This document shows, in pieces, positions 1 to 23,835 of a stretch of 27,500 bases of DNA. The stretch is from Pseudomonadota bacterium (GTDB lineage: Bacteria > Bdellovibrionota > Bdellovibrionia > Bdellovibrionales > SG-bin7). Made by a program: the position numbers and the translations under genes. The stretch is from NCBI GenBank assembly GCA_034439715.1, contig JAWXAY010000024.1:1-27500 (forward strand), given 5' to 3'. Below the pieces are notes generated by a model, which saw only the letters and a list, made by a program, of their open reading frames with translations, did not search any database and was not told where the DNA came from. How positions within the stretch are numbered: position 1 is the stretch's first letter; each line of letters starts with the position of its first letter.

Positions 1-379
1 GTCCTTGAAAGGGAAAGTCTTTGCTCATGTCGAGGTGTTCTTTCGCCTCTGCAATATCATTCTGTATGAGTTGTTTTGCGCCTGGTAGATTTGAATACCA
101 GGGATAGTTGGTGTTGGAGCTGTGGCAATCAAAGCAGCTCTTTCTAAAGACTGGCTTCACCGTTGCCAGATAAGATTCGTTGATCGCTCTCGTTATCTCT
201 TCAGCCTCTTTATTCGGATGAAAAACGTGATGCTTCTCCTTCTTGATGTTGTGCGACTCGCCCTCGTGAGCAACAGCAAACGGGAGCGCCGCCACCTGAA
301 GAATTAACGCAATGGCTACTATGGCTGATTTTCTCAAGTCGATTTGAAAACAGAAAATAAGCAGCCATCTATTTTTCAT
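1..379 (-). CDS. Exported c-type heme-binding protein (Haem_bd-like), runs off the left edge
   Basis: Manual translation from ATG 379 (ATGA overlap with upstream stop): MKNRWLL...signal/TM...AHEGESHNIKKEKHHVFHP...KSCFDCHSSNTNYPWYSNLPGAKQLIQNDIAEAKEHLD; CxxCH plus YPWYS motif. Missing from the ORF track. Confidence 0.85.
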   Translation of the reverse strand, partial: MKNRWLLIFCFQIDLRKSAIVAIALILQVAALPFAVAHEGESHNIKKEKHHVFHPNKEAEEITRAINESYLATVKPVFRKSCFDCHSSNTNYPWYSNLPGAKQLIQNDIAEAKEHLDMSKDFPFQG

Positions 380-750
380 TTTTCCATACCCGCTAAAGTT
401 GAGACGTACTTCTCAAAATTGGCACGATTTTCAAAATAGAGAACCGAACCCGCTTCATTCGCAGCAATAACTGCCTTTGATTTGTCGATTGATTTCTGGG
501 TCTGCGGATCGGTTGCCAACCTAGAGGAAGCATCATTTTTGATGGTTGCCTTACAATTTTCGCAGCAACCGTAGTAGGTCTTTCCCGACTGTTCTACCGG
601 AATCTGTAGTCTTGAAAAGTGCATGTTAGTCACCATGCAGACTTCTTTGTTAGGTACGATTTTCCAATTCTCAATTGCGTGAGCGGGTCCTCCAAACAGG
701 AGAATGCTTGCCGTGAAAACCAGGAAAAACGATGCGAGAGCCTTAGTCAT
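376..750 (-). CDS. Exported YHS/TRASH-type metal-binding protein
   Basis: ATG 750 with AAGGA SD; signal peptide; VCMVTN...GKTYYGCCENC motif and a second DPQT...LYFEN half-repeat. Confidence 0.8.
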   Translation of the reverse strand: MTKALASFFLVFTASILLFGGPAHAIENWKIVPNKEVCMVTNMHFSRLQIPVEQSGKTYYGCCENCKATIKNDASSRLATDPQTQKSIDKSKAVIAANEAGSVLYFENRANFEKYVSTLAGMEK

Positions 751-776
751 AAATTTAATCCTTTCGTAAGTCCGTT

Positions 777-3086
777 CTAAAATTGTATTTGAGCACCAAC
801 TCCTACGGTCTTCTCTGTCGCCATTAAACCGGCAGCCCAATGCCACGAGGGGCCATACATCAGTGAAATTTCAAACTCGGAGTCGCGTTCTCCACCCCAG
901 CCCGGACGCCACGTAAAATCGGCCTCGGTAAAGACGTTCTTCGTCCATTGAAAACGCTTTTCTACATCAAATCTGAATTTTCCTTCGTGGCTAATGTAGA
1001 GATTGGTTTCAATTAGCATTGGAAGAATGTAGCCAACGCCCGCCATTGCAAAACCTTCTTCGTCGTAGAGCGAGCCGCCAACCGACACATTGATGAAGTT
1101 AGAAAACCACCTTCGGTACGTCATATCTCCCTCGGTCTCCCAAGCACGGTTGAAGGAAAAGTTTTTCCCTTCAATGTTTGCCGACTCTAACTTCAAATTG
1201 AGTTCGTCCCAAGTACGCATGAGCTTGAATTCGGCCTTGGCGTGGTTGCTTGAGGCTTCAAGAAGGCTGTAGTTATAAATGTGATCGTGCAAATGCGGGT
1301 CTTGCTTATCGTGCTTGGCCATCTCAGGTGTAAGTTGAAAGTCCTTGTACCGCACCACGCGCGCCATGCCGGTCTTCATGTGATAAAGATTATGACAATG
1401 GAGCATCCACTGGCCGGGTTCGTTTGCGTAAAATTCGATTGCGCGAGTTCCGTGCGGCGGAACATCGACGGTATGTTTTAAGGGCGACAAGTCTCCATGC
1501 TGGTTTATGACTCGGAAGAAGTGGCCGTGCAAGTGCATCGGATGATGCATCATCGTGTCGTTTTGAAATGTGAAGCGAACGACCTCGCCTTTGTTGATCT
1601 CGATGAATCGGTTTTCGTAGATAGCCTTACCGTTAATATGCCAAATGTAGCGTTCCATATCGCCGCCAAGAACGAGCTTGAGGTCGTGAACTTTTGCATC
1701 TTTGGGCAATGCTGTTGATTCGATCGCCTCTAAACTATCCACACTGAGCGTCTCGATAACCGGAGGTTTTGAGTTTAGATCACGTGGGGATTCGTTTTGC
1801 CTCAGCATTGCATCCGACTGCGTGTTGAAATCAACTGGTTGCTTCGGCTTCGAGGGCTCTTTATGTTTCGAGTGCTCATCGGTCGAATGGACTTTGGGTG
1901 ACGCCTTCATCGCGCCGCCATGCTTGCGATGCGCGGCATGGGGGTCAGTTGAGGCAGCTTCCGCTTTCCGTATCGTGGCCTTTCCATCTTCATGATCGGC
2001 ATGGGCGCCGTGATCCATTCCGCTCATTCCGCTCATTCCGCCGTGACCCACGTGATCCATTGATGAATAGAGATCAGGAAGTGGTTTATCAGGAGCCCTA
2101 ACCTTTTCGCCCATGCCGATCCAACCCGAGGCAAAGCCAGTCACGTCTTGAACGGTAGCTCTGAGTTCATAATTTTTATGCTCGGAGGGCGTGAAAAGGA
2201 CATCGTAAGTTTCTGCCATGCCCATCAGAATTTCTTTAGCCATGACGGGCTTGATGTCTACGCCGTCTGCCGAAATTACCTGCATTGGGGACTGGCCTAA
2301 AGAGACGTAAAAATAGCTAGAGGCCGCAGCATTGATGATGCGAATACGGATTTTCTCGCCAGGATGAGCGGTTAGAAGCTGGGAGTCGCGTTTTCCATTT
2401 ATCAAGAAGGCGTCGTAGCCAACGTCTGAGAGGTCCATTCCACCCATACGGTCCCATTCATTTGCAAGATGAGTTTTTAATCCCCCGGCTCGCAATGCGC
2501 CAAAGTAGGAGCGAACGGAATCTTTTTTGTAAAGGTAGTAGTCGCCGTCCTTGCGAAGATTTCGAATGATCTGGTCGGCATCCTCATCTGACCAATCGCT
2601 TAAAACGATAACAAGGTCTTTATCGTACTGAATGGCTTTCTTCTTTGGGTGGATGATGAAAGCGCCGTAGACGCCCTTTTGCTCCTGAACGGCCGTATGT
2701 GAGTGATACCAGTACGTGCCATTTTGTCGGATTTTGAAGCGGAACGTGTGCGACTTTCCTGGAAAGATTGGCGGAGTGTTCACGTAGGCAACTCCGTCCA
2801 TTTCTGGAGGGAGCAAGATTCCGTGCCAGTGTATCGAAACCTCCTCATTGCCAGGAATATTGTTGGTCACAATAATTTCGGCGTCATCGCCTTCAGTGAA
2901 CTCTAGCGTTGGCGCAGGAATGCCGCCATTGACCATCAGGGCAAAATCAACATTCTTTTTGCCACTCATGTTTATGGGTTGTTTTGAAACGGTCAGCGCA
3001 TAGCGCACGGTTTTGGCGAGTGCGGGAGATGAAAAGAGAAGAACACCAAAAAGTGTGGCAAGAAGTGACGGCACGGCGAGCTTCAT
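777..3086 (-). CDS. copA: CopA-family multicopper oxidase with C-terminal outer-membrane beta-barrel-like domain
   Basis: ATG 3086 with GGAGG SD; HWHG, WYHSH, HPMHLHGH, HCHNLYHM copper ligands; His/Met-rich linker; about 170 C-terminal residues with amphipathic beta pattern ending in Phe. Confidence 0.92.
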   Translation of the reverse strand: MKLAVPSLLATLFGVLLFSSPALAKTVRYALTVSKQPINMSGKKNVDFALMVNGGIPAPTLEFTEGDDAEIIVTNNIPGNEEVSIHWHGILLPPEMDGVAYVNTPPIFPGKSHTFRFKIRQNGTYWYHSHTAVQEQKGVYGAFIIHPKKKAIQYDKDLVIVLSDWSDEDADQIIRNLRKDGDYYLYKKDSVRSYFGALRAGGLKTHLANEWDRMGGMDLSDVGYDAFLINGKRDSQLLTAHPGEKIRIRIINAAASSYFYVSLGQSPMQVISADGVDIKPVMAKEILMGMAETYDVLFTPSEHKNYELRATVQDVTGFASGWIGMGEKVRAPDKPLPDLYSSMDHVGHGGMSGMSGMDHGAHADHEDGKATIRKAEAASTDPHAAHRKHGGAMKASPKVHSTDEHSKHKEPSKPKQPVDFNTQSDAMLRQNESPRDLNSKPPVIETLSVDSLEAIESTALPKDAKVHDLKLVLGGDMERYIWHINGKAIYENRFIEINKGEVVRFTFQNDTMMHHPMHLHGHFFRVINQHGDLSPLKHTVDVPPHGTRAIEFYANEPGQWMLHCHNLYHMKTGMARVVRYKDFQLTPEMAKHDKQDPHLHDHIYNYSLLEASSNHAKAEFKLMRTWDELNLKLESANIEGKNFSFNRAWETEGDMTYRRWFSNFINVSVGGSLYDEEGFAMAGVGYILPMLIETNLYISHEGKFRFDVEKRFQWTKNVFTEADFTWRPGWGGERDSEFEISLMYGPSWHWAAGLMATEKTVGVGAQIQF

Positions 3087-3168
3087 TATTATTCCTCCGA
3101 AAGAGGCTCCTTGAAGCCGCATGGTTTTAAGAGCGGGGCTTTCTTCGGGGGCATCTCTTCCTAATATA

Positions 3169-4017: not shown

Positions 4018-4064
4018 CGATCCTTAGGTTTTTTGCTTTTCTTACTCAAACAGTATTCGAAAAT

Positions 4065-4141
<77 letters not shown>

Positions 4142-4160
4142 AGCATTGGTCAGACGCGTC

Positions 4161-4189
4161 AACCTACTGATCAATGGGTACACTGTCAA
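4161..4189 (-). promoter_or_regulatory. sigma-70 promoter of tRNA-Pro
   Basis: TTGACA-N17-TAGGTT followed by GC-rich discriminator GACGCG. Confidence 0.7.
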
Positions 4190-4286
4190 TTCTCGGGATT
4201 GTTTTTTGCGTGACGTAATTTTTATTGCTTTATTGTTCCCCTCGGTTAAACAACAGAAGGTTTTGTTTAATATCGCGAGGTCGAAA

Positions 4287-5646
4287 ATGGCAGCAATTCT
4301 GACGGTTTTATCAGCACTTTTATTTTTCGAAACCACACATGCCCGTGATGCTGAGTTTTATAACGAAGCCCAAATCCGAACTCGTTACGAAAATCGAAAA
4401 ATGATAAATGGTAAATCCATTAACGCCGACAACCGCGAGGGAGTCTGAGCAGGATTTCACGACCCGCACTCAGCTGGGCGTTAATATGCGAAAAGGTGAG
4501 AGTGTTAAGGCCAAACTTTTATTTTCTCATAATTTTCAGTGGGGGAGTGATGTCGACGCAACTACTGGCGCAGAGGGTACCGACAATACCGAGCCTTATC
4601 AGCCGGACGGCATTAATAATAACGAGAATATTCCGCTCGTTAGCGAAGCCTGGCTATGGTGGAAGCTCAACGAGTCCATGTCCCTTCGCATGGGCCGTGG
4701 CCCCTTTTCATTGGGCGATGGCAAAGTTATTTCAAATAATGACTATTTGAAAGTGCCTTATTCGTTGGACGGCGTAGTCATCGGTTGGAGTGGCGAGCTT
4801 TCACATTCAGATTTTTTTGCGCTCAAGCTTATCGAAAACGTAAAGCCAGGTTTTGTGACTAACGATTCGGAAATGAATGTCTACGGCCTTAGTTTTAATG
4901 TTAAAAATCCACCTGAAATTTTTAAAATTATTCATTTTCATGTAATGCAAGTGGTAAAAAATGCGATTGATAAGGGCGGAAATGGGATTGGTGAGGACCC
5001 CATTTATGAACGCGGTCTCAATTACGGTCGCTACGGTTTGGCCTTTGTCGGTGGAAAGTTTTTTCAGTATGCCATCTCCTACGCCGCCCACTCAGGCGAA
5101 ATCCAGTTGGGTACGAGCACTAAGGTATGGAGTGGCTCAATGATTGACGCCGAACTGGCCCTCAGGCCCACATGGAAAAATGCCAAAATTTACTATGGCT
5201 ATCATCGAGACACCGGCAATGAACAGGTGAATGGAGAGAAAGAGGCAAAGTACGACAGTTTTCTATATGAAAAACATGGGACTTCGGGTGCGATGGATGT
5301 TTTGGGCTGGGGTAATTTAACTTTTTGGAAGGCTGGCCTACACGCCGATATTCTTGAGGACCTCCGACTTTACATTGATTATTATTCTTTTTTACGTTCT
5401 GAAACTCGGGATACTGTCACAGCGGGCCCAAATGGTACTTCCATGTTGGCCTCTCAACTGGGTGACGTTTCTGATGAATCAGAAATTGGCAGTGAGTGGG
5501 ATGTCTCAGTCGACCATACTTACGATACCGGCCTCAACATGCTTTTACGATTCAGCACGTTTATTCCTGGACCTTATCTAAGTGAAAACTCAGGACCCAA
5601 CAAAAATTTTTCTCAGGTTTTTTTGCAGGCAAAAATCCAGTTTTAA
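4287..5646 (+). pseudogene. Alginate-export (AlgE-like) outer-membrane beta-barrel split by a +1 frameshift
   Basis: ATG 4287 (GAGGT SD), signal peptide and IRTRYE strand end at TGA 4446-4448; the barrel body (EAWLWW, RMGRG, LDGV, IGSEWD, terminal QF) is in the 4408 frame, which has no signal peptide. Confidence 0.7.
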
Positions 5647-6843: not shown

Positions 6844-8283
6844 TTATGCGGCTTTTATTATCGTGGGCCTGTTAGGTTGACCTGCGACATTTCCGCAGCC
6901 TCGGCATTTAAAAACAAAGAAACCGCTATCATCATTGTCGAGGTACATAATTGTGCTGCAGGTCGGGCATTCGTGGAGGCCGACGGTATCTCCTTGGGTG
7001 ACTATGTCCTTCAATTGGTAACATTTTATTATGTCGCTTTCAAAGCCTTTAAGTTTTAAGTCGCCTACAAATTCAAACTTAAACTGCTCTTTGTCTCGTA
7101 AAGCATCCATCAGATCATGATCTACAACAACTCCATCTACCGGTCCGGCGCCGCAGAGCCTTGAAGACAAATTTACGGCAGGCCCAATCGCCGTGTAGCT
7201 GTGAAAGTGTTTACGGGGGCCGTAGAACCCAATGTTGGCATAGCCCACAGAAATGCCAATTCTTATCTCGAGTTTTTGGTGCCAATTCTTTTCGTACTCA
7301 AAACTTCTTTCTCGAATCGCGGCCAGAATTTCCCAGCTTGCCTTTAAGCAGCGGTCCGCATAGTCGTCATATTTTATAGGTGCGTTCGAAAATGCAAAAA
7401 TGCCATCGCCCAAAAATTTATCTATAGTGATATCATATTTCAGCAGGTATTTTGTCGTATCCTCTAAAAACATTGTAATGACCTTATTTACTTTTTCTTG
7501 GTCAATTCGCACAACTCTTTCTGTCGAATTTACGATATCAATAAACATAGCGCATATTTTATTACGCTTTATCCCATCGGTAATTTTAATTTCCCCCGAC
7601 TTGATAGAATTTACGACCTGCGGACTAAATTGTTGGCTTAAGAGTCCCAGGTCAATGGCTTCTTTACTTTTTATTTCTATAATTTTGTCCCGGTTGGTGA
7701 CTTCTTGATTAAGTGCCATTCTGCTCTTGATTTCTTCTGTGCGGAGTTTTTCGTTGAACAGGCGAGTTAGAATCGAAATCAATATTGTCGAAAAAACAAA
7801 GAATGAATTAATTGCCATTGCTTGCCAGTTTCGGTCTGCGGGGGCAACAAAGATTGCGAGCAGATAAAATGGTGCGTAAATTATTATTGGGTTGATAAAG
7901 TAGAAGGCTTTACTCCATGGAAAAAATGCTAGAGCTGCAATGGAAACTAAATTTAGCCCCGCGTAATAGGGTGAAGACATACCTTCTGCGCGGTAAGCCA
8001 TTATAGAAATAAACAACGCGGCCACAAACATGAGAAAAGCTACATTGGCTTGTTGTCCAATATACGACTTGAGCCGCCTCGACAGCAACAACGTTTGGTA
8101 AGCGACTAGCGCTGTAAAAAGGCGATAGGCTAAAAACTCAAACTTTTTGTCAGGCACATAAATATAGTCGCATACCCAAAAAAGTAAATAGAGTGGCAAT
8201 GCAATTTTGCCGCTGATTATTTCGACAACTTGCTTGATTTCTTGAATTCGTTCTTTGTTTCGAACTTCGTTAATAGTTAAAAT
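6844..8283 (-). CDS. 6-TM class III adenylate cyclase with C-terminal zinc ribbon (start uncertain: ATT 8283 or TTG 8199)
   Basis: MFIDIVNST, DKFLGDG, RIGIS.G, YTAIGPAVNLSSRL motifs; Lys/Thr specificity residues suggest ATP; six hydrophobic segments; CPTC-x17-CRGC. Confidence 0.9.
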   Translation of the reverse strand: MLTINEVRNKERIQEIKQVVEIISGKIALPLYLLFWVCDYIYVPDKKFEFLAYRLFTALVAYQTLLLSRRLKSYIGQQANVAFLMFVAALFISIMAYRAEGMSSPYYAGLNLVSIAALAFFPWSKAFYFINPIIIYAPFYLLAIFVAPADRNWQAMAINSFFVFSTILISILTRLFNEKLRTEEIKSRMALNQEVTNRDKIIEIKSKEAIDLGLLSQQFSPQVVNSIKSGEIKITDGIKRNKICAMFIDIVNSTERVVRIDQEKVNKVITMFLEDTTKYLLKYDITIDKFLGDGIFAFSNAPIKYDDYADRCLKASWEILAAIRERSFEYEKNWHQKLEIRIGISVGYANIGFYGPRKHFHSYTAIGPAVNLSSRLCGAGPVDGVVVDHDLMDALRDKEQFKFEFVGDLKLKGFESDIIKCYQLKDIVTQGDTVGLHECPTCSTIMYLDNDDSGFFVFKCRGCGNVAGQPNRPTIIKAA

Positions 8284-8303
8284 TCAATCCCCCAAAAAGC
8301 CAA

Positions 8304-9746
8304 CTAGGCCGCATCTTTTTTTGTGCAATAAAAAAGATTAATGCCGGTGCCCTCGTGCTCGACCGTCGAAGTGCCTTCGAGATGTGAGAAAAGGCCCTTC
8401 ATTTGCTCAATCGATCGATAAATCAGGTGCCAGTCCAACGCTATAGCCATAATAAATTTATTAGGATTGCCAGTATTAAAGTTGCCGATAATTAGCTCCC
8501 CACCCTTTTTTAAACTTTTAAAGAGGCTGGATCCCGCCATTTGAGCTACAGGATCTGTTAGATAATCAAAAAGACCTGCGCTATAAATAAGATCATACTT
8601 TTCATCAAGGCCACGAGTTATTACGTTCTTGATTGCTGAGTGTACCATCCTAATGTCGATTTTTAAACTGTGTTTATTGGCGAGGTTTCGAAGCGTCCGT
8701 TGGGTAAATTTTAATGCCGACTCATCTTGGTCAAGTAAATGAATAGAAATATTCTTATTAGCTAATAAATCTGAGTTCTCATTTATGATTTTTTGTATCT
8801 CCATGGCAGGACCACATGCTACGGATAGAATTTTCAAATCTTTGGTGGAATTTGTTTTGATGATATTGACTATTTTATCTTGCAAGTAATCTGCCCTATT
8901 CTTTACGGCAACGGCAGAGGGCTCGTTAACTAAATAGTAATGCAAACATTTTGCAAATAAGGACTCTCCAATCACTTCAGATCGATAGATCAGATTCATC
9001 ATTTCGTAATCACCCGCGTAGCCCAGCGGCTTGCTGTAGACCCTGTTGGCAAAGGGAGCCTCATAAATGAGTTTCCTCATGTTTTCGCGAAAAAATTTGA
9101 ATGAGGCAGATTTTTGTATTTCGTCGCAGCCTTGTAGCTGTTGAAACAGCCGGTCATAAACAGGCACAAAAAACTTAGTAAAGTAATTCGAGAAAAACTG
9201 GCAAATGGTCATTTCGTAGTTTCGATAATCCATGGCCGACGATTTGTTGGCCGATGTCTCTAGATCAGTGATTTTTTGCTTGAGGGATTCTAAGTAGTCT
9301 TTTGTTCGCCATACGCCTTCTCGAAATGGTACGGGCACTAGGTCAGAAATTTTGAGATCTTCTTCTAGTGATTTTATTATTTTAAAGCTTTCAAAAAGTG
9401 CGAATACCTGTTCGACGGGGACCGGCATACTTAAAACTTCAAACCCAACGATGTAGCCATCGTCTTCGGTGAGTTCATTTCTTACAGCCTTTAGATGGAG
9501 GCTTGCGATTTCGAATTGGTCTACCATGAAGGGGCATTCTTGATACTCGGAATTTGTAAACCATTGCGTCTTAGAATTTATGGCGAGCCCAAAGGCGCTA
9601 AAGTTTGAAACCACATGGCGCTGACCATCTATTTCAACGAAACAAGGAACATCATTTATATGGATTCTGTCTTGCCTTAAAATTTTTACTCGATTTTTTT
9701 CGGGCTCATTAATAAAAAAATCTTGATGGGCAGTTGCTAACTTCAT
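8304..9746 (-). CDS. PhcB-like class I SAM-dependent methyltransferase with PilZ-like N-terminus
   Basis: AAGGAG SD; KPLGYAGDYEMMN, LSVACGPAME, YSAGLFDYL, GGELIIGNF, LDWHLIYRS motifs; N-terminal RQDR...NFSAFGLA PilZ-like pattern. Confidence 0.8.
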   Translation of the reverse strand: MKLATAHQDFFINEPEKNRVKILRQDRIHINDVPCFVEIDGQRHVVSNFSAFGLAINSKTQWFTNSEYQECPFMVDQFEIASLHLKAVRNELTEDDGYIVGFEVLSMPVPVEQVFALFESFKIIKSLEEDLKISDLVPVPFREGVWRTKDYLESLKQKITDLETSANKSSAMDYRNYEMTICQFFSNYFTKFFVPVYDRLFQQLQGCDEIQKSASFKFFRENMRKLIYEAPFANRVYSKPLGYAGDYEMMNLIYRSEVIGESLFAKCLHYYLVNEPSAVAVKNRADYLQDKIVNIIKTNSTKDLKILSVACGPAMEIQKIINENSDLLANKNISIHLLDQDESALKFTQRTLRNLANKHSLKIDIRMVHSAIKNVITRGLDEKYDLIYSAGLFDYLTDPVAQMAGSSLFKSLKKGGELIIGNFNTGNPNKFIMAIALDWHLIYRSIEQMKGLFSHLEGTSTVEHEGTGINLFYCTKKDAA

Positions 9747-9781
9747 AGTTGCTCCTTAAAGTGAATTAATTCATCACCTTA

Positions 9782-9808
9782 CTATCGGCAAATTAACGAA
9801 ATCATTTA
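9782..9808 (-). promoter_or_regulatory. sigma-28 (FliA) promoter
   Basis: TAAA-N15-GCCGATAG vs consensus TAAA-N15-GCCGATAA, 35 nt upstream of the methyltransferase ATG. Confidence 0.75.
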
Positions 9809-9882: not shown

Positions 9883-10176
9883 TTAATAACTAAAAGGCTG
9901 AGGGCTAATGGCTTCTGGACCATGCCAATTGTCATAGTGATCGGTAGCTACGGGTAGAAGACAAAGGGTGCGGGCAATTTTTATGGCGTGCGCGACTGTT
10001 CGCTGTTGGGCCTGGCTCATTTTGCTAATTCGAGCTGGCACTACCTTGCCACCTTCCATTACGAAACGGCCTAAAGTTGTAGGATCTTTATAGTCAAATT
10101 TGAATTTTCCAGGGTATTCCTGGCGGTATTTTAAGCGTACACCTGATTTCTTGTTATCTTTTGCGATGGTAGACAT
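9883..10176 (-). CDS. rpsR: 30S ribosomal protein S18 (no zinc-ribbon Cys)
   Basis: ATG 10176 with AAGGAG; FDYKD..L.RF..EGGKV.PARI...QQR.VA.AIK.AR.L.LLP signature. Confidence 0.92.
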   Translation of the reverse strand: MSTIAKDNKKSGVRLKYRQEYPGKFKFDYKDPTTLGRFVMEGGKVVPARISKMSQAQQRTVAHAIKIARTLCLLPVATDHYDNWHGPEAISPQPFSY

Positions 10177-10337
10177 AGTACTCCTTGAAAAAGCCCTTAA
10201 AAAAACACAGCCAAATACGACAAAATTCGATTGCCAACAAGCGTCTGTTTCACCTATATCTACCATTTGCGCTTTTATTTCAATAGTTTTATTGGATTAC
10301 AGCTGCATTTACCACAGCACTACACCGGAGGATTTTA

Positions 10338-23255: not shown

Positions 23256-23289
23256 GATGAATTTAACCAAAGCTGACGTTGGGCGAGAG

Positions 23290-23835
23290 AAATTGAAAAC
23301 TGTCTAAAAAATGGGATAGGGTCACCGTCACTGTCAGTGGCAAAAACTCCGCCGGGAGCGAGAGAGTGAAAGTGCACGTTAAGATTACGCTCCCACCAAA
23401 TCTTTGAATGGCGGTAACGGCGGCGCAGTTTATTTTGCCGCTGATTTCATTTGTTCTCGCCTGCGCGATATAGAATCCATCAATGACTCGTAAATAGATC
23501 TGATGGCTTTTAGTAATATGCTTGGGGTTTTTGGCAAGGATAAACCGAATCGGAAACGGAAAGCTCAAAACCCACTGCCTGATTGGGAGTTTTGGGAGGA
23601 CGTGGTCGACTAAGAACACGGCGGTTTCGTTCATCCGGCGCCCCATACAGGCGGGGCAAAACCCACGGCCTCGGCATGCGAAGGCCACAAGTTTTTCGTC
23701 GTGGCATTTCGTGCACGCAACTCTTAAAAATTCTTTTACGACGTGCGCGGGTAAGGGTTTATCTTGCAGCTCAATAATCTTGAGAAATGTGTTGAGGTTA
23801 TCCTGAACCACTTTGTAGAGGACGGTGTGATCCGA
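23290..23835 (-). mobile_element. IS91/ISCR-family (Y2/HUH) transposase pseudogene, 5' part; ends approximate
   Basis: HTVLYKVVQDN, C..C..EKLVAFACRGRGFCPACMGRRM zinc motif, P.RQWVLSFP, IQRFGG; after a frameshift NLNVHFHSL..GGVF (HUH motif). Confidence 0.88.

What the first reader, a model, noticed from the sequence alone, without database searches (positions are those of the whole stretch)
6844..9808. Candidate quorum-sensing circuit: PhcB-like signal synthase paired with a 6-TM receptor adenylate cyclase
Seen: two co-oriented genes, 20 nt apart if the ATT 8283 start is used. The first is a 480-aa SAM methyltransferase (KPLGYAGDYEMM, SVACGPA, SAGLFDYL). The second is a cyclase with six TMs (PLYLLFW, SPYYAGLNLV) and intact catalytic motifs. 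Established: Ralstonia PhcB is a SAM methyltransferase that makes 3-hydroxy fatty-acid methyl ester signals, read by the adjacent membrane kinase PhcS; 6-TM CqsS/LqsS sensors can control class III cyclases in engineered chimeras. Inference: a natural synthase-receptor pair in which the His kinase is replaced by a cyclase, turning a self-made lipid signal directly into cAMP, possibly density sensing in a predator.
Basis: partly seen in the sequence, partly recalled or inferred. Interest (0 to 1): 0.9.

Follow-up and report, generated by a model that had tools for sequence, protein, structure and literature searches.

The report
Phc-type signal synthase with receptor cyclase
Two adjacent genes encode a relative of the enzyme that makes Ralstonia's fatty-acid methyl-ester quorum signal and a membrane sensor of the matching receptor type fused to a cAMP-making enzyme; the pair recurs across predatory Bdellovibrionota, including a laboratory predator described as having no quorum sensing, so a self-made lipid may control cAMP directly, although no chemistry has been tested.

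Summary
The 480-aa methyltransferase (8304-9746, -) aligns with Ralstonia PhcB orthologues over residues 103-474 (hhalign P 100, E 6e-52). The cyclase (6844-8283, -; ATT start likely, junction confirmed in contigs of two other runs) has six TMs homologous to PhcS (P 99.3 against at most 0.66 for shuffled controls), but not detectably to an LqsS-type sensor. All seven class IIIb cyclase residues are intact. In 51 of 69 phylum loci the synthase is followed directly by this sensor-cyclase; elsewhere the same sensor carries a His kinase. B. bacteriovorus HD100 appears to carry the pair (bd3071-bd3072), higher in attack phase. Against: product, ligand and density dependence are untested; some orthologues lack a catalytic Asn or the substrate Lys; some genomes have only one partner. 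It is not a member of the Phc system (no kinase, PhcR or PhcQ) but probably works like one: a new variant.

The parts
8304..9746 (-). PhcB-family SAM methyltransferase gene, 480 aa (P0001), putative signal synthase
   Evidence: model pLDDT 93.7
9423..9692 (-). N-terminal PilZ-fold domain (aa ~19-108): R24xxR27 plus (N/D)48-x-S-x-x-G53; no match to the PhcB N-terminus
9066..9416 (-). Helical middle domain (aa ~111-227); aligned with PhcB in the full profile alignment, not significant on its own
8313..9056 (-). Class I methyltransferase core with the PLGYAGDY, xNR, ACGPA, AGLFDY and WxLxYR motifs shared with PhcB
8284..8303 (-). 20-nt junction with a GGGGG ribosome-binding-like run before ATT 8283
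6844..8283 (-). PhcS-type 6TM sensor fused to a class IIIb nucleotidyl (adenylate-type) cyclase and a zinc ribbon, 479 aa (P0121)
7765..8229 (-). Six-helix PhcS-type membrane sensor (aa 19-173); D39, R54, Y106, G109 and F162 conserved across cyclase and kinase versions
7579..7764 (-). Continuous signalling helix and transducer-like motif (SQQFSPQVV; the name 'cyclase transducer element' is recalled)
6997..7578 (-). Class III cyclase catalytic domain, closest solved structure P. aeruginosa CyaB (Z 27.2, rmsd 1.5, 190 residues)
6895..6969 (-). C-terminal four-Cys zinc ribbon (C439, C460 and C463 invariant in 119 of 119; C442 in 105 of 119)

Best explanation
A Phc-type make-and-sense module whose output is cAMP. 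Step 1 (homology shown, chemistry inferred): the PhcB-family enzyme uses SAM to methylate the carboxyl group of a long-chain, probably 3-hydroxy, acyl substrate, giving a diffusible fatty-acid methyl ester. Step 2 (homology shown, binding inferred): the ester partitions into the membrane and binds the PhcS-type six-helix sensor. Step 3 (architecture shown, regulation inferred): the sensor signals through the continuous helix to the class IIIb cyclase dimer, raising or lowering cAMP with no phosphorelay. Step 4 (inferred): cAMP acts on cNMP-binding proteins (five in this genome). Step 5 (fold shown, binding speculative): the PilZ-fold domain may let c-di-GMP gate signal synthesis. The likeliest role is population or life-stage sensing among free-swimming predator cells.
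For: L104 (Ralstonia chuxiongensis) is phcX-B-S-R-Q, with R22, L161 and R154 at the positions published for GMI1000 PhcB, PhcS and PhcQ. Synthase versus that PhcB: 30% over 267 aa, E 6e-40; profile versus profile P 100, E 5.8e-52, 359 columns; same SH-aLRT-100 clade, excluding 4 of 6 more distant methyltransferases. Sensor versus PhcS: 27% over 198 aa, E 2e-14; hhalign P 99.3, E 1.6e-20 against at most P 0.66 in 30 column-shuffled controls. A profile built only from Burkholderiales PhcS membrane domains hits just this cyclase among 12,590 ORFs of the genome (E 2e-12). Synteny: 51 of 69 phylum loci sensor-cyclase; 79 of 81 Burkholderiales-type loci sensor-kinase; 61 of 79 metagenome loci have the sensor directly downstream, 10 end at the contig edge and 8 have none. 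The sensor is kept while the output changes. Wider family context is lipid chemistry: terminal domain after KS-ACP in a plasmid PKS and next to fatty-acid desaturases. Fatty acids regulate mammalian and mycobacterial six-helix cyclases through the membrane domain (abstracts). HD100 bd3071 and bd3072 lie 17 nt apart; RPKM attack/growth 41/9.7 and 194/85; Bd3071 protein log2 7.3 in attack phase, 5.0 at 3 h, 7.4 at 6 h.
Against: No biochemistry. Identity to PhcB is only about 30%, and distant methyltransferases with no such sensor keep 22-26 of the 30 invariant residues (PhcB keeps 24), so the motifs do not fix the substrate. The N-terminal domains of the two enzymes do not align (P 0.17). With single-sequence queries, 9 of 65 genomes with a strong synthase hit had no sensor hit, and 26 of 82 genomes with a sensor hit had no strong synthase hit. 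N371 is Pro in 27 of 119 close orthologues, including HD100; 20 of 71 cyclases examined (some near-duplicates) lack the substrate Lys; three loci have a sensor with no output domain. At least one synthase (L168) has swapped partners, and the tree congruence (Mantel rho 0.67, n 107) may reflect shared ancestry. Putative 109J orthologues show no predation defect in Tn-seq (W 1.5-2.0). In the HD100 RNA table bd3071 is flagged 'silent' (below the authors' threshold). A review states that B. bacteriovorus lacks quorum-sensing systems.
Confidence: 0.58

Rival explanations
1. A functionally coupled lipid-sensing pair, but not an autoinducer system. The sensor reads a free (3-hydroxy) fatty acid or other membrane lipid, for example one released from prey envelopes or the cell's own acyl pool, and the methyltransferase resets or converts that ligand.
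For: Free fatty acids are the ligands reported for related six-helix cyclases (abstracts). Sensors without a detected synthase, and synthases beside desaturases without a detected sensor, both occur. Expression follows life-cycle stage.
Against: The only characterised members of this gene pair form an autoinducer loop (passages). The ligand-side residues are conserved between PhcS and this sensor. Bd3071 falls during intraperiplasmic growth, when prey lipids would be most available.
Confidence: 0.22
2. A CheR-like protein methyltransferase that methylates its partner sensor (or chemoreceptors) for adaptation, gated by c-di-GMP through PilZ.
For: Weak CheR hits: Pfam E 5e-4, below cut-off; the only PDB sequence hit is chemotaxis methyltransferase 5FTW, E 4.5e-5; the eggNOG label of Bd3071 is MCP methylation. 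The genes are always adjacent.
Against: Far closer to PhcB, which makes a small molecule (E 6e-52). The best structural matches are 3OCJ (Z 20.9, rmsd 3.2, 252 residues) and mainly small-molecule methyltransferases. The same domain terminates a PKS. The partner's cytoplasmic part changes freely between cyclase, kinase and nothing.
Confidence: 0.09
3. The ligand-sensor link is real, but the cyclase domain is not a working adenylate cyclase; it makes another cyclic nucleotide or signals through protein contacts or its zinc ribbon.
For: The Asn-to-Pro change in Bdellovibrio-like orthologues, Lys-to-Thr/Ser/Asn clades and sensor-only genes.
Against: The window's protein keeps all seven canonical residues, and K289 and T364 are invariant in 119 close homologues. 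It superposes on CyaB at rmsd 1.5.
Confidence: 0.08
4. The linkage is incidental or vestigial, and the two proteins have no shared function.
For: Each partner is found without the other in some genomes.
Against: Tight or overlapping spacing across many families and with different output domains.
Confidence: 0.03

Closest known systems
Phc quorum sensing (phcBSRQ) of Ralstonia, Cupriavidus and Paraburkholderia
   Same: PhcB-family methyltransferase directly upstream of a homologous six-helix sensor, in the same order
   Different: Output is a class III cyclase with a zinc ribbon, not a His kinase with PhcR and PhcQ; the synthase has a PilZ-fold N-terminus that does not align with PhcB's; different phylum. 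PMC10653808 (passages) describes the phc cluster within Proteobacteria as restricted to Betaproteobacteria.
Cqs/Lqs alpha-hydroxyketone systems and the engineered CqsS-Rv1625c chimera (PMC4821796, abstract and passages)
   Same: A six-TM receptor for a lipophilic autoinducer can regulate a class III cyclase directly
   Different: That coupling was engineered. The synthase there is PLP-dependent. No similarity was detected between this sensor and an LqsS-type sensor from Paraburkholderia xenovorans; CqsS was not compared.
Six-helix membrane adenylyl cyclases: mammalian mACs and M. tuberculosis Rv1625c/Cya (abstracts of PMC11606603 and PMC12505454)
   Same: 6TM + helix + class III domain; the model's residues 1-214 superpose on human AC5 223-437 (Z 13.8, rmsd 3.2, 210 residues); fatty-acid ligands act through the membrane domain
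   Different: No sequence similarity was detected in the membrane part. Class IIIb-type catalytic domain. Here a candidate ligand synthase is encoded next door, which those abstracts do not report.
P. aeruginosa CyaB (PDB 3R5G)
   Same: Closest solved catalytic domain (E 4e-31; Z 27.2)
   Different: Only the catalytic domain matches; its MASE2 membrane domain (recalled) is a different family
MASE8 membrane sensor domain (PF20968)
   Same: Precomputed hits on many homologues and on the window's protein; Atlas neighbour cluster with MASE8 in 11% of members
   Different: Not reproduced with the held Pfam copy; only a sub-threshold hit (E 0.004) on a PhcS-like kinase

Membership tests
Phc quorum-sensing system | PhcB-family SAM methyltransferase | tested here: met
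   JGI names many homologues '3-hydroxypalmitic acid methyl ester biosynthesis protein'
Phc quorum-sensing system | PhcS-type six-helix sensor directly downstream of the synthase | tested here: met
Phc quorum-sensing system | His-kinase output with PhcR and PhcQ receivers in the operon | tested here: not met
   The sensor is fused to a cyclase and the next gene is convergent
Phc quorum-sensing system | Makes and responds to (R)-3-OH MAME/PAME in a density-dependent way | not testable with these tools
   Needs GC-MS and activity assays
Phc quorum-sensing system | PhcA LysR-type master regulator | not tested
   No search run
Cqs/Lqs systems | PLP-dependent alpha-hydroxyketone synthase | tested here: not met
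   The partner is a SAM methyltransferase
Cqs/Lqs systems | CqsS/LqsS-type sensor domain | tested here: inconclusive
   No match to one LqsS-type sensor (hhalign P 0.85; HMM E at least 1.6). A single sequence was used and CqsS was not available.
Class IIIb adenylate cyclase | Two metal Asp, substrate Lys and Thr/Ser, transition-state Asn and Arg, phosphate Lys (roles recalled) | tested here: met
   D249 K289 D293 T364 N371 R375 K412; fold
Class IIIb adenylate cyclase | Converts ATP to cAMP | not testable with these tools
   Needs an assay
PilZ c-di-GMP receptor | PilZ barrel fold | tested here: met
   Atlas: 29 of 30 named feature hits are PilZ (0.90); TM 0.76-0.79 to PilZ models; weak Pfam PilZ on homologue P0003
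PilZ c-di-GMP receptor | (D/N)xSxxG motif (recalled) | tested here: met
   N/D in 115, S in 109, G in 116 of 116
PilZ c-di-GMP receptor | RxxxR motif (recalled) | tested here: not met
   Invariant R24xxR27 spacing instead (116 of 116)
PilZ c-di-GMP receptor | Binds c-di-GMP | not testable with these tools
   The capture-proteomics paper (PMC4686195) was not held
CheR protein methyltransferase | Pfam CheR above cut-off and grouping with CheR | tested here: not met
   19.9 bits against a cut-off of 27; PhcB profile E 6e-52; no CheR sequence was included in the trees
MASE8 (PF20968) | Profile match above cut-off | tested here: inconclusive
   Precomputed hit not reproduced (the control rang nowhere)

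The most novel reading that the evidence does not exclude
This is a quorum-sensing system of predatory Bdellovibrionota and a natural case of a six-helix adenylate cyclase gated by a self-made lipid, with a membrane fold like that of mammalian adenylyl cyclases. c-di-GMP gates the synthase through its PilZ domain, and the cAMP produced feeds back on c-di-GMP through cNMP-activated phosphodiesterases such as Bd1971, closing a loop that times attack-phase behaviour. The acyl substrate might even be prey-derived 3-hydroxy fatty acid.
Probability: 0.25. Interest if true: 0.92.

Novelty: new variant of a known kind. Interest (0 to 1): 0.78.

Why it matters
It makes three open questions testable in a culturable, genetically tractable, non-pathogenic organism. 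First, whether Bdellovibrio has quorum sensing: a 2023 review says it has none (PMC10225642, passage). Second, what controls cAMP in B. bacteriovorus: four cyclases, including bd3072, are listed as uncharacterised sources of the cAMP that activates Bd1971 (PMC6717892, passage). Third, whether six-helix cyclase anchors have dedicated endogenous lipid ligands: the evidence I saw comes from a chimera and from added fatty acids (PMC4821796, PMC11606603, PMC12505454), whereas here a candidate ligand synthase is encoded next to the receptor. It would also show the PhcB-PhcS pair to be a portable module with exchangeable outputs far outside Betaproteobacteria.

Tried and rejected
Assembly frameshift at the cyclase start: rejected. 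TTG 8199 as the true start: unlikely, since it cuts TM1 and orthologues start earlier. LqsS-type sensor: no match. NCBIfam: no family for the sensor alone. PDB sequence search with the sensor profile: nothing significant, best E 0.22. Profile match of the N-terminal or middle domain alone to PhcB: not significant. PDB sequence search with the PilZ part: 0 hits; the whole-model fold searches were filled by the methyltransferase core and did not test the PilZ part. Promoter scan: 10 sites against 8.8 expected, uninformative; no terminator-like site listed between rpsR and the synthase. Sequencing runs: no RNA holder listed. The synthase-cyclase complex prediction never ran, so there is no verdict. 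A deeper profile search for other output domains on this sensor was not completed. Literature: 10 full-text searches listed no paper whose title, abstract start or read passages describe a PhcB-like synthase with a cyclase receptor or Phc homologues in Bdellovibrionota. The library lacks most subscription journals; the MASE6-8 paper and the c-di-GMP capture paper were not held; supplements of PMC11656739 and of bioRxiv papers were not readable and could bear on novelty.
Full report
OBSERVATION. The two genes are as described. The methyltransferase (MT, P0001) runs 9746-8304 on the minus strand, 480 aa. The cyclase frame (P0121) runs 8283-6844 and opens with ATT directly after an in-frame TGA, 20 nt after the MT stop. 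The first canonical start (TTG 8199) lies inside TM1. A GGGGG run 5 nt upstream, the length of the 72%-identical orthologue P0124 and start positions in orthologous loci favour an ATT start. Contigs of runs X4 and X5 cross the junction with no differences or gaps; X6 and X8 do not cover it (4 of 10 listed runs were laid). The genome (G000, 3.26 Mb, 95.7% complete) has one such MT, one such sensor and one other class III cyclase. Close homologues are named as Bdellovibrionaceae and Bdellovibrio proteins, so I treat its phylum as Bdellovibrionota; predation by this organism itself is not shown.

REFERENCE FOR PHC. A Paraburkholderia plasmid hit (L001) led to 80 Burkholderiales-type loci. L104 (Ralstonia chuxiongensis) has the order receiver / MT / 6TM kinase / receiver-kinase / receiver. 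It has R22, L161 and R154 exactly where GMI1000 PhcB, PhcS and PhcQ carry the published mutations (PMC6989110, passages). I used it as the phcXBSRQ reference; an R. solanacearum sequence itself was not obtained.

THE SYNTHASE. BLASTP to the L104 PhcB gives 30% over 267 aa, E 6e-40. Profile against profile gives P 100, E 5.8e-52 over residues 103-474. In a 32-row tree the window's MT and PhcB share an SH-aLRT-100 clade that excludes the Rhizobium, Roseateles, Pantoea and Deinococcus relatives but includes two long-branched rows, a PKS domain and a Pseudanabaena protein (quick search). The motifs alone are not diagnostic: PhcB keeps 24 of 30 invariant residues and distant relatives keep 22-26. 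The AlphaFold model (pLDDT 93.7) has three parts: a beta barrel, a helical bundle and a class I MT core whose best match is the uncharacterised Bordetella protein 3OCJ (Z 20.9, rmsd 3.2, 252 residues). The barrel is PilZ-like by language-model features and by structure. It carries (N/D)xSxxG and an invariant RxxR instead of RxxxR (116 sequences), and it does not align with PhcB's N-terminus. The wider family sits in lipid contexts: after KS-ACP in a PKS and next to desaturases.

THE RECEPTOR-CYCLASE. There are six hydrophobic segments in residues 19-173. They align with PhcS at 27% over 198 aa, E 2e-14, sharing EGxSSPYYxGLNL. Profile against profile gives P 99.3, E 1.6e-20, against at most P 0.66 for 30 column-shuffled controls. 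A PhcS-only profile finds this protein alone among 12,590 genome ORFs. D39, R54, Y106, G109 and F162 are conserved in both cyclase-type (65 rows) and kinase-type (36 rows) sensors, and PhcS L161 aligns next to F162. An LqsS-type kinase beside a curated-cut-off alpha-hydroxyketone synthase in P. xenovorans is not matched (P 0.85); PhcS does not match it either (P 0.37). MASE8 is a lead only. The catalytic domain is closest to CyaB and keeps all seven canonical residues (their roles are recalled). A four-Cys zinc ribbon ends the protein. The model's residues 1-214 superpose on human AC5 223-437 at Z 13.8, rmsd 3.2, 210 residues, and whole-chain alignments to Rv1625c and AC9 span the membrane part at high rmsd. 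The tool warns that Z under about 13 for helical bundles may be a common arrangement, so this is suggestive only.

SYNTENY. 71 of 401 sampled phylum genomes have an MT match. I examined 69 loci covering 70 of the 74 matches outside G000; the 4 weakest (E at least 5e-5) were left out. 51 have sensor-cyclase directly downstream, 3 a cyclase without a sensor hit at E 1e-4 (two gain one at a looser threshold), 2 a sensor only and 13 none; of those 13, 8 form a separate clade, 3 have the sensor nearby on the other strand and 2 are weak fragments. Of 81 Burkholderiales-type loci, 79 have sensor-kinase and 2 are cut by contig ends. Of 79 metagenome loci (L152, identical to the window, left out; some are near-duplicates), 30 have sensor-kinase, 16 sensor-cyclase, 13 a sensor cut by the contig end, 2 a sensor with other or no output, 10 no room and 8 none. 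At genome level, 56 of 65 genomes with a strong MT hit also have a sensor hit, and 26 of 82 sensor-positive genomes lack a strong MT hit with these single-sequence queries. MT and sensor trees are broadly congruent (rho 0.67, n 107; permutation maximum 0.10), but kin are not independent and L168 shows a partner swap.

MODEL ORGANISM. The cluster of P0208 (42% identical to the window's cyclase) contains P0242 = CAE80837.1, a 480-aa 'probable adenylate cyclase' of the B. bacteriovorus type strain. The HD100 table lists bd3072 as an adenylate cyclase of 1,443 nt, 17 nt downstream of bd3071, a 'regulatory protein' of 1,467 nt (PMC3627812 supplement rows). I infer from length, adjacency and annotation, not from an alignment, that these are the pair. 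RPKM attack/growth is 41/9.7 for bd3071 (flagged silent by the authors' threshold) and 194/85 for bd3072. Bd3071 protein falls from log2 7.3 in attack phase to 5.0 at 3 h and returns to 7.4 at 6 h (PMC12546842, passage and supplement rows). The putative 109J orthologues EP01_RS00655 and RS00660, assigned by locus order and annotation, have W 1.5-2.0, with defects defined as W below 0.1 (PMC6561027). They are therefore not needed for predation in pooled culture; cross-feeding could mask a synthase mutant but not a receptor mutant. bd3072 is listed among the uncharacterised cyclases that may supply cAMP to the phosphodiesterase Bd1971 (PMC6717892, passages). A review states that HD100 lacks quorum-sensing systems (PMC10225642, passage). 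The HD100 cyclase has Pro for the catalytic Asn, so its activity needs testing.

MECHANISM. Shown: homology of both halves to PhcB and PhcS, conserved tight linkage, an intact cyclase site, a PilZ fold and a zinc ribbon. Established for Phc: PhcB makes 3-OH PAME/MAME, sensed by PhcS (passages of PMC10653808, PMC11298618, PMC9102662). Established for six-helix cyclases: regulation through the membrane domain by CAI-1 in a chimera (PMC4821796, abstract and passages) and by fatty acids (abstracts only). Inferred: that this enzyme makes an acyl methyl ester, that the sensor binds it, that binding changes cAMP and that the purpose is population or stage sensing (0.58). Rivals: lipid sensing without autoinduction (0.22), CheR-like protein methylation (0.09), a non-cAMP or non-catalytic output (0.08) and incidental linkage (0.03).

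KNOWN OR NEW. It is not a member of the Phc system as defined, because the kinase and receivers are absent, but it most likely works like its input half. Ten literature searches showed no description of this architecture (limits in Tried and rejected). Other papers seen: 10.1101/2021.11.05.467447 (passages, names MASE8 only) and PMC11656739 (passages, not informative). Earlier unchecked AI notes from this scan report the same synthase-cyclase idea in another genome, PilZ-fused synthases, and phosphatase outputs; they are not independent support, and they show the module has been noticed before within this scan.

VERDICT. A real, conserved, new variant of a known kind, with a direct experimental route in a laboratory predator. 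Interest 0.78; the boldest reading has probability 0.25 and interest 0.92 if true.

Noticed in passing
L129, L131-L133, L135-L143, L145, L185, L187-L189, L196, L215: Two clades of synthase-linked cyclases replace the adenine-specifying Lys with Thr, Ser or Asn while keeping the other catalytic residues; they may make a different cyclic nucleotide.
   Followed up: partly
L007, L009-L024, L027-L031, P0242 (HD100): Bdellovibrio-like orthologues replace the transition-state Asn with Pro; four others have Ser and one Arg.
   Followed up: partly
L112, L114, L218: The synthase is followed by a 204-227-aa sensor-only gene with no output domain; the three group together in both trees.
   Followed up: partly
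L115, L117, L120-L122, L124-L126: A second synthase clade with no adjacent sensor; in the two loci inspected (L115, L122) it follows a co-oriented fatty-acid desaturase. A Deinococcus relative also lies in a desaturase operon.
   Followed up: partly
L232:6733-9870: An Enterobacter ludwigii plasmid PKS ends in KS-ACP plus a PhcB-like methyltransferase, a possible ester-forming release domain.
   Followed up: partly
L149:3256-6759: A synthase followed by a PilZ-FeeM(N-acyl amino acid synthase)-GAF-cyclase fusion, another possible lipid-to-cAMP link.
   Followed up: no
L139, L143, L153: A second PhcS-type sensor with a kinase output sits beside the synthase-cyclase pair, so both outputs can coexist.
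   Followed up: partly
G000:C43:30525-33380: The genome's only other detected class III cyclase (952-aa frame, CHASE2-like by eye). The genome also has 5 cNMP-binding, 12 PilZ and 6 GGDEF matches.
   Followed up: partly
window 9883-10266 (-): Ribosomal protein S18 gene with extensions at both ends (127-aa ORF, S18 domain at 55-104), 136 nt upstream of and co-oriented with the synthase, separated from rpmB/rplX-like genes on the other strand.
   Followed up: no
window 2-3122 (-): Multicopper-oxidase (CopA-like) gene with a His-rich linker, a small YHS/TRASH-like gene and a haem-binding-like gene; names are by eye and recalled.
   Followed up: no
window 23263-23811 (-): Fragment resembling an IS91-family transposase zinc-binding region (recalled, not searched), at the edge of a mostly lower-GC stretch of hypothetical genes at 21.9-27.3 kb.
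   Followed up: no
window ~4050-4340: A tRNA-like sequence appears within spurious ORFs; the tRNA scan was not run.
   Followed up: no
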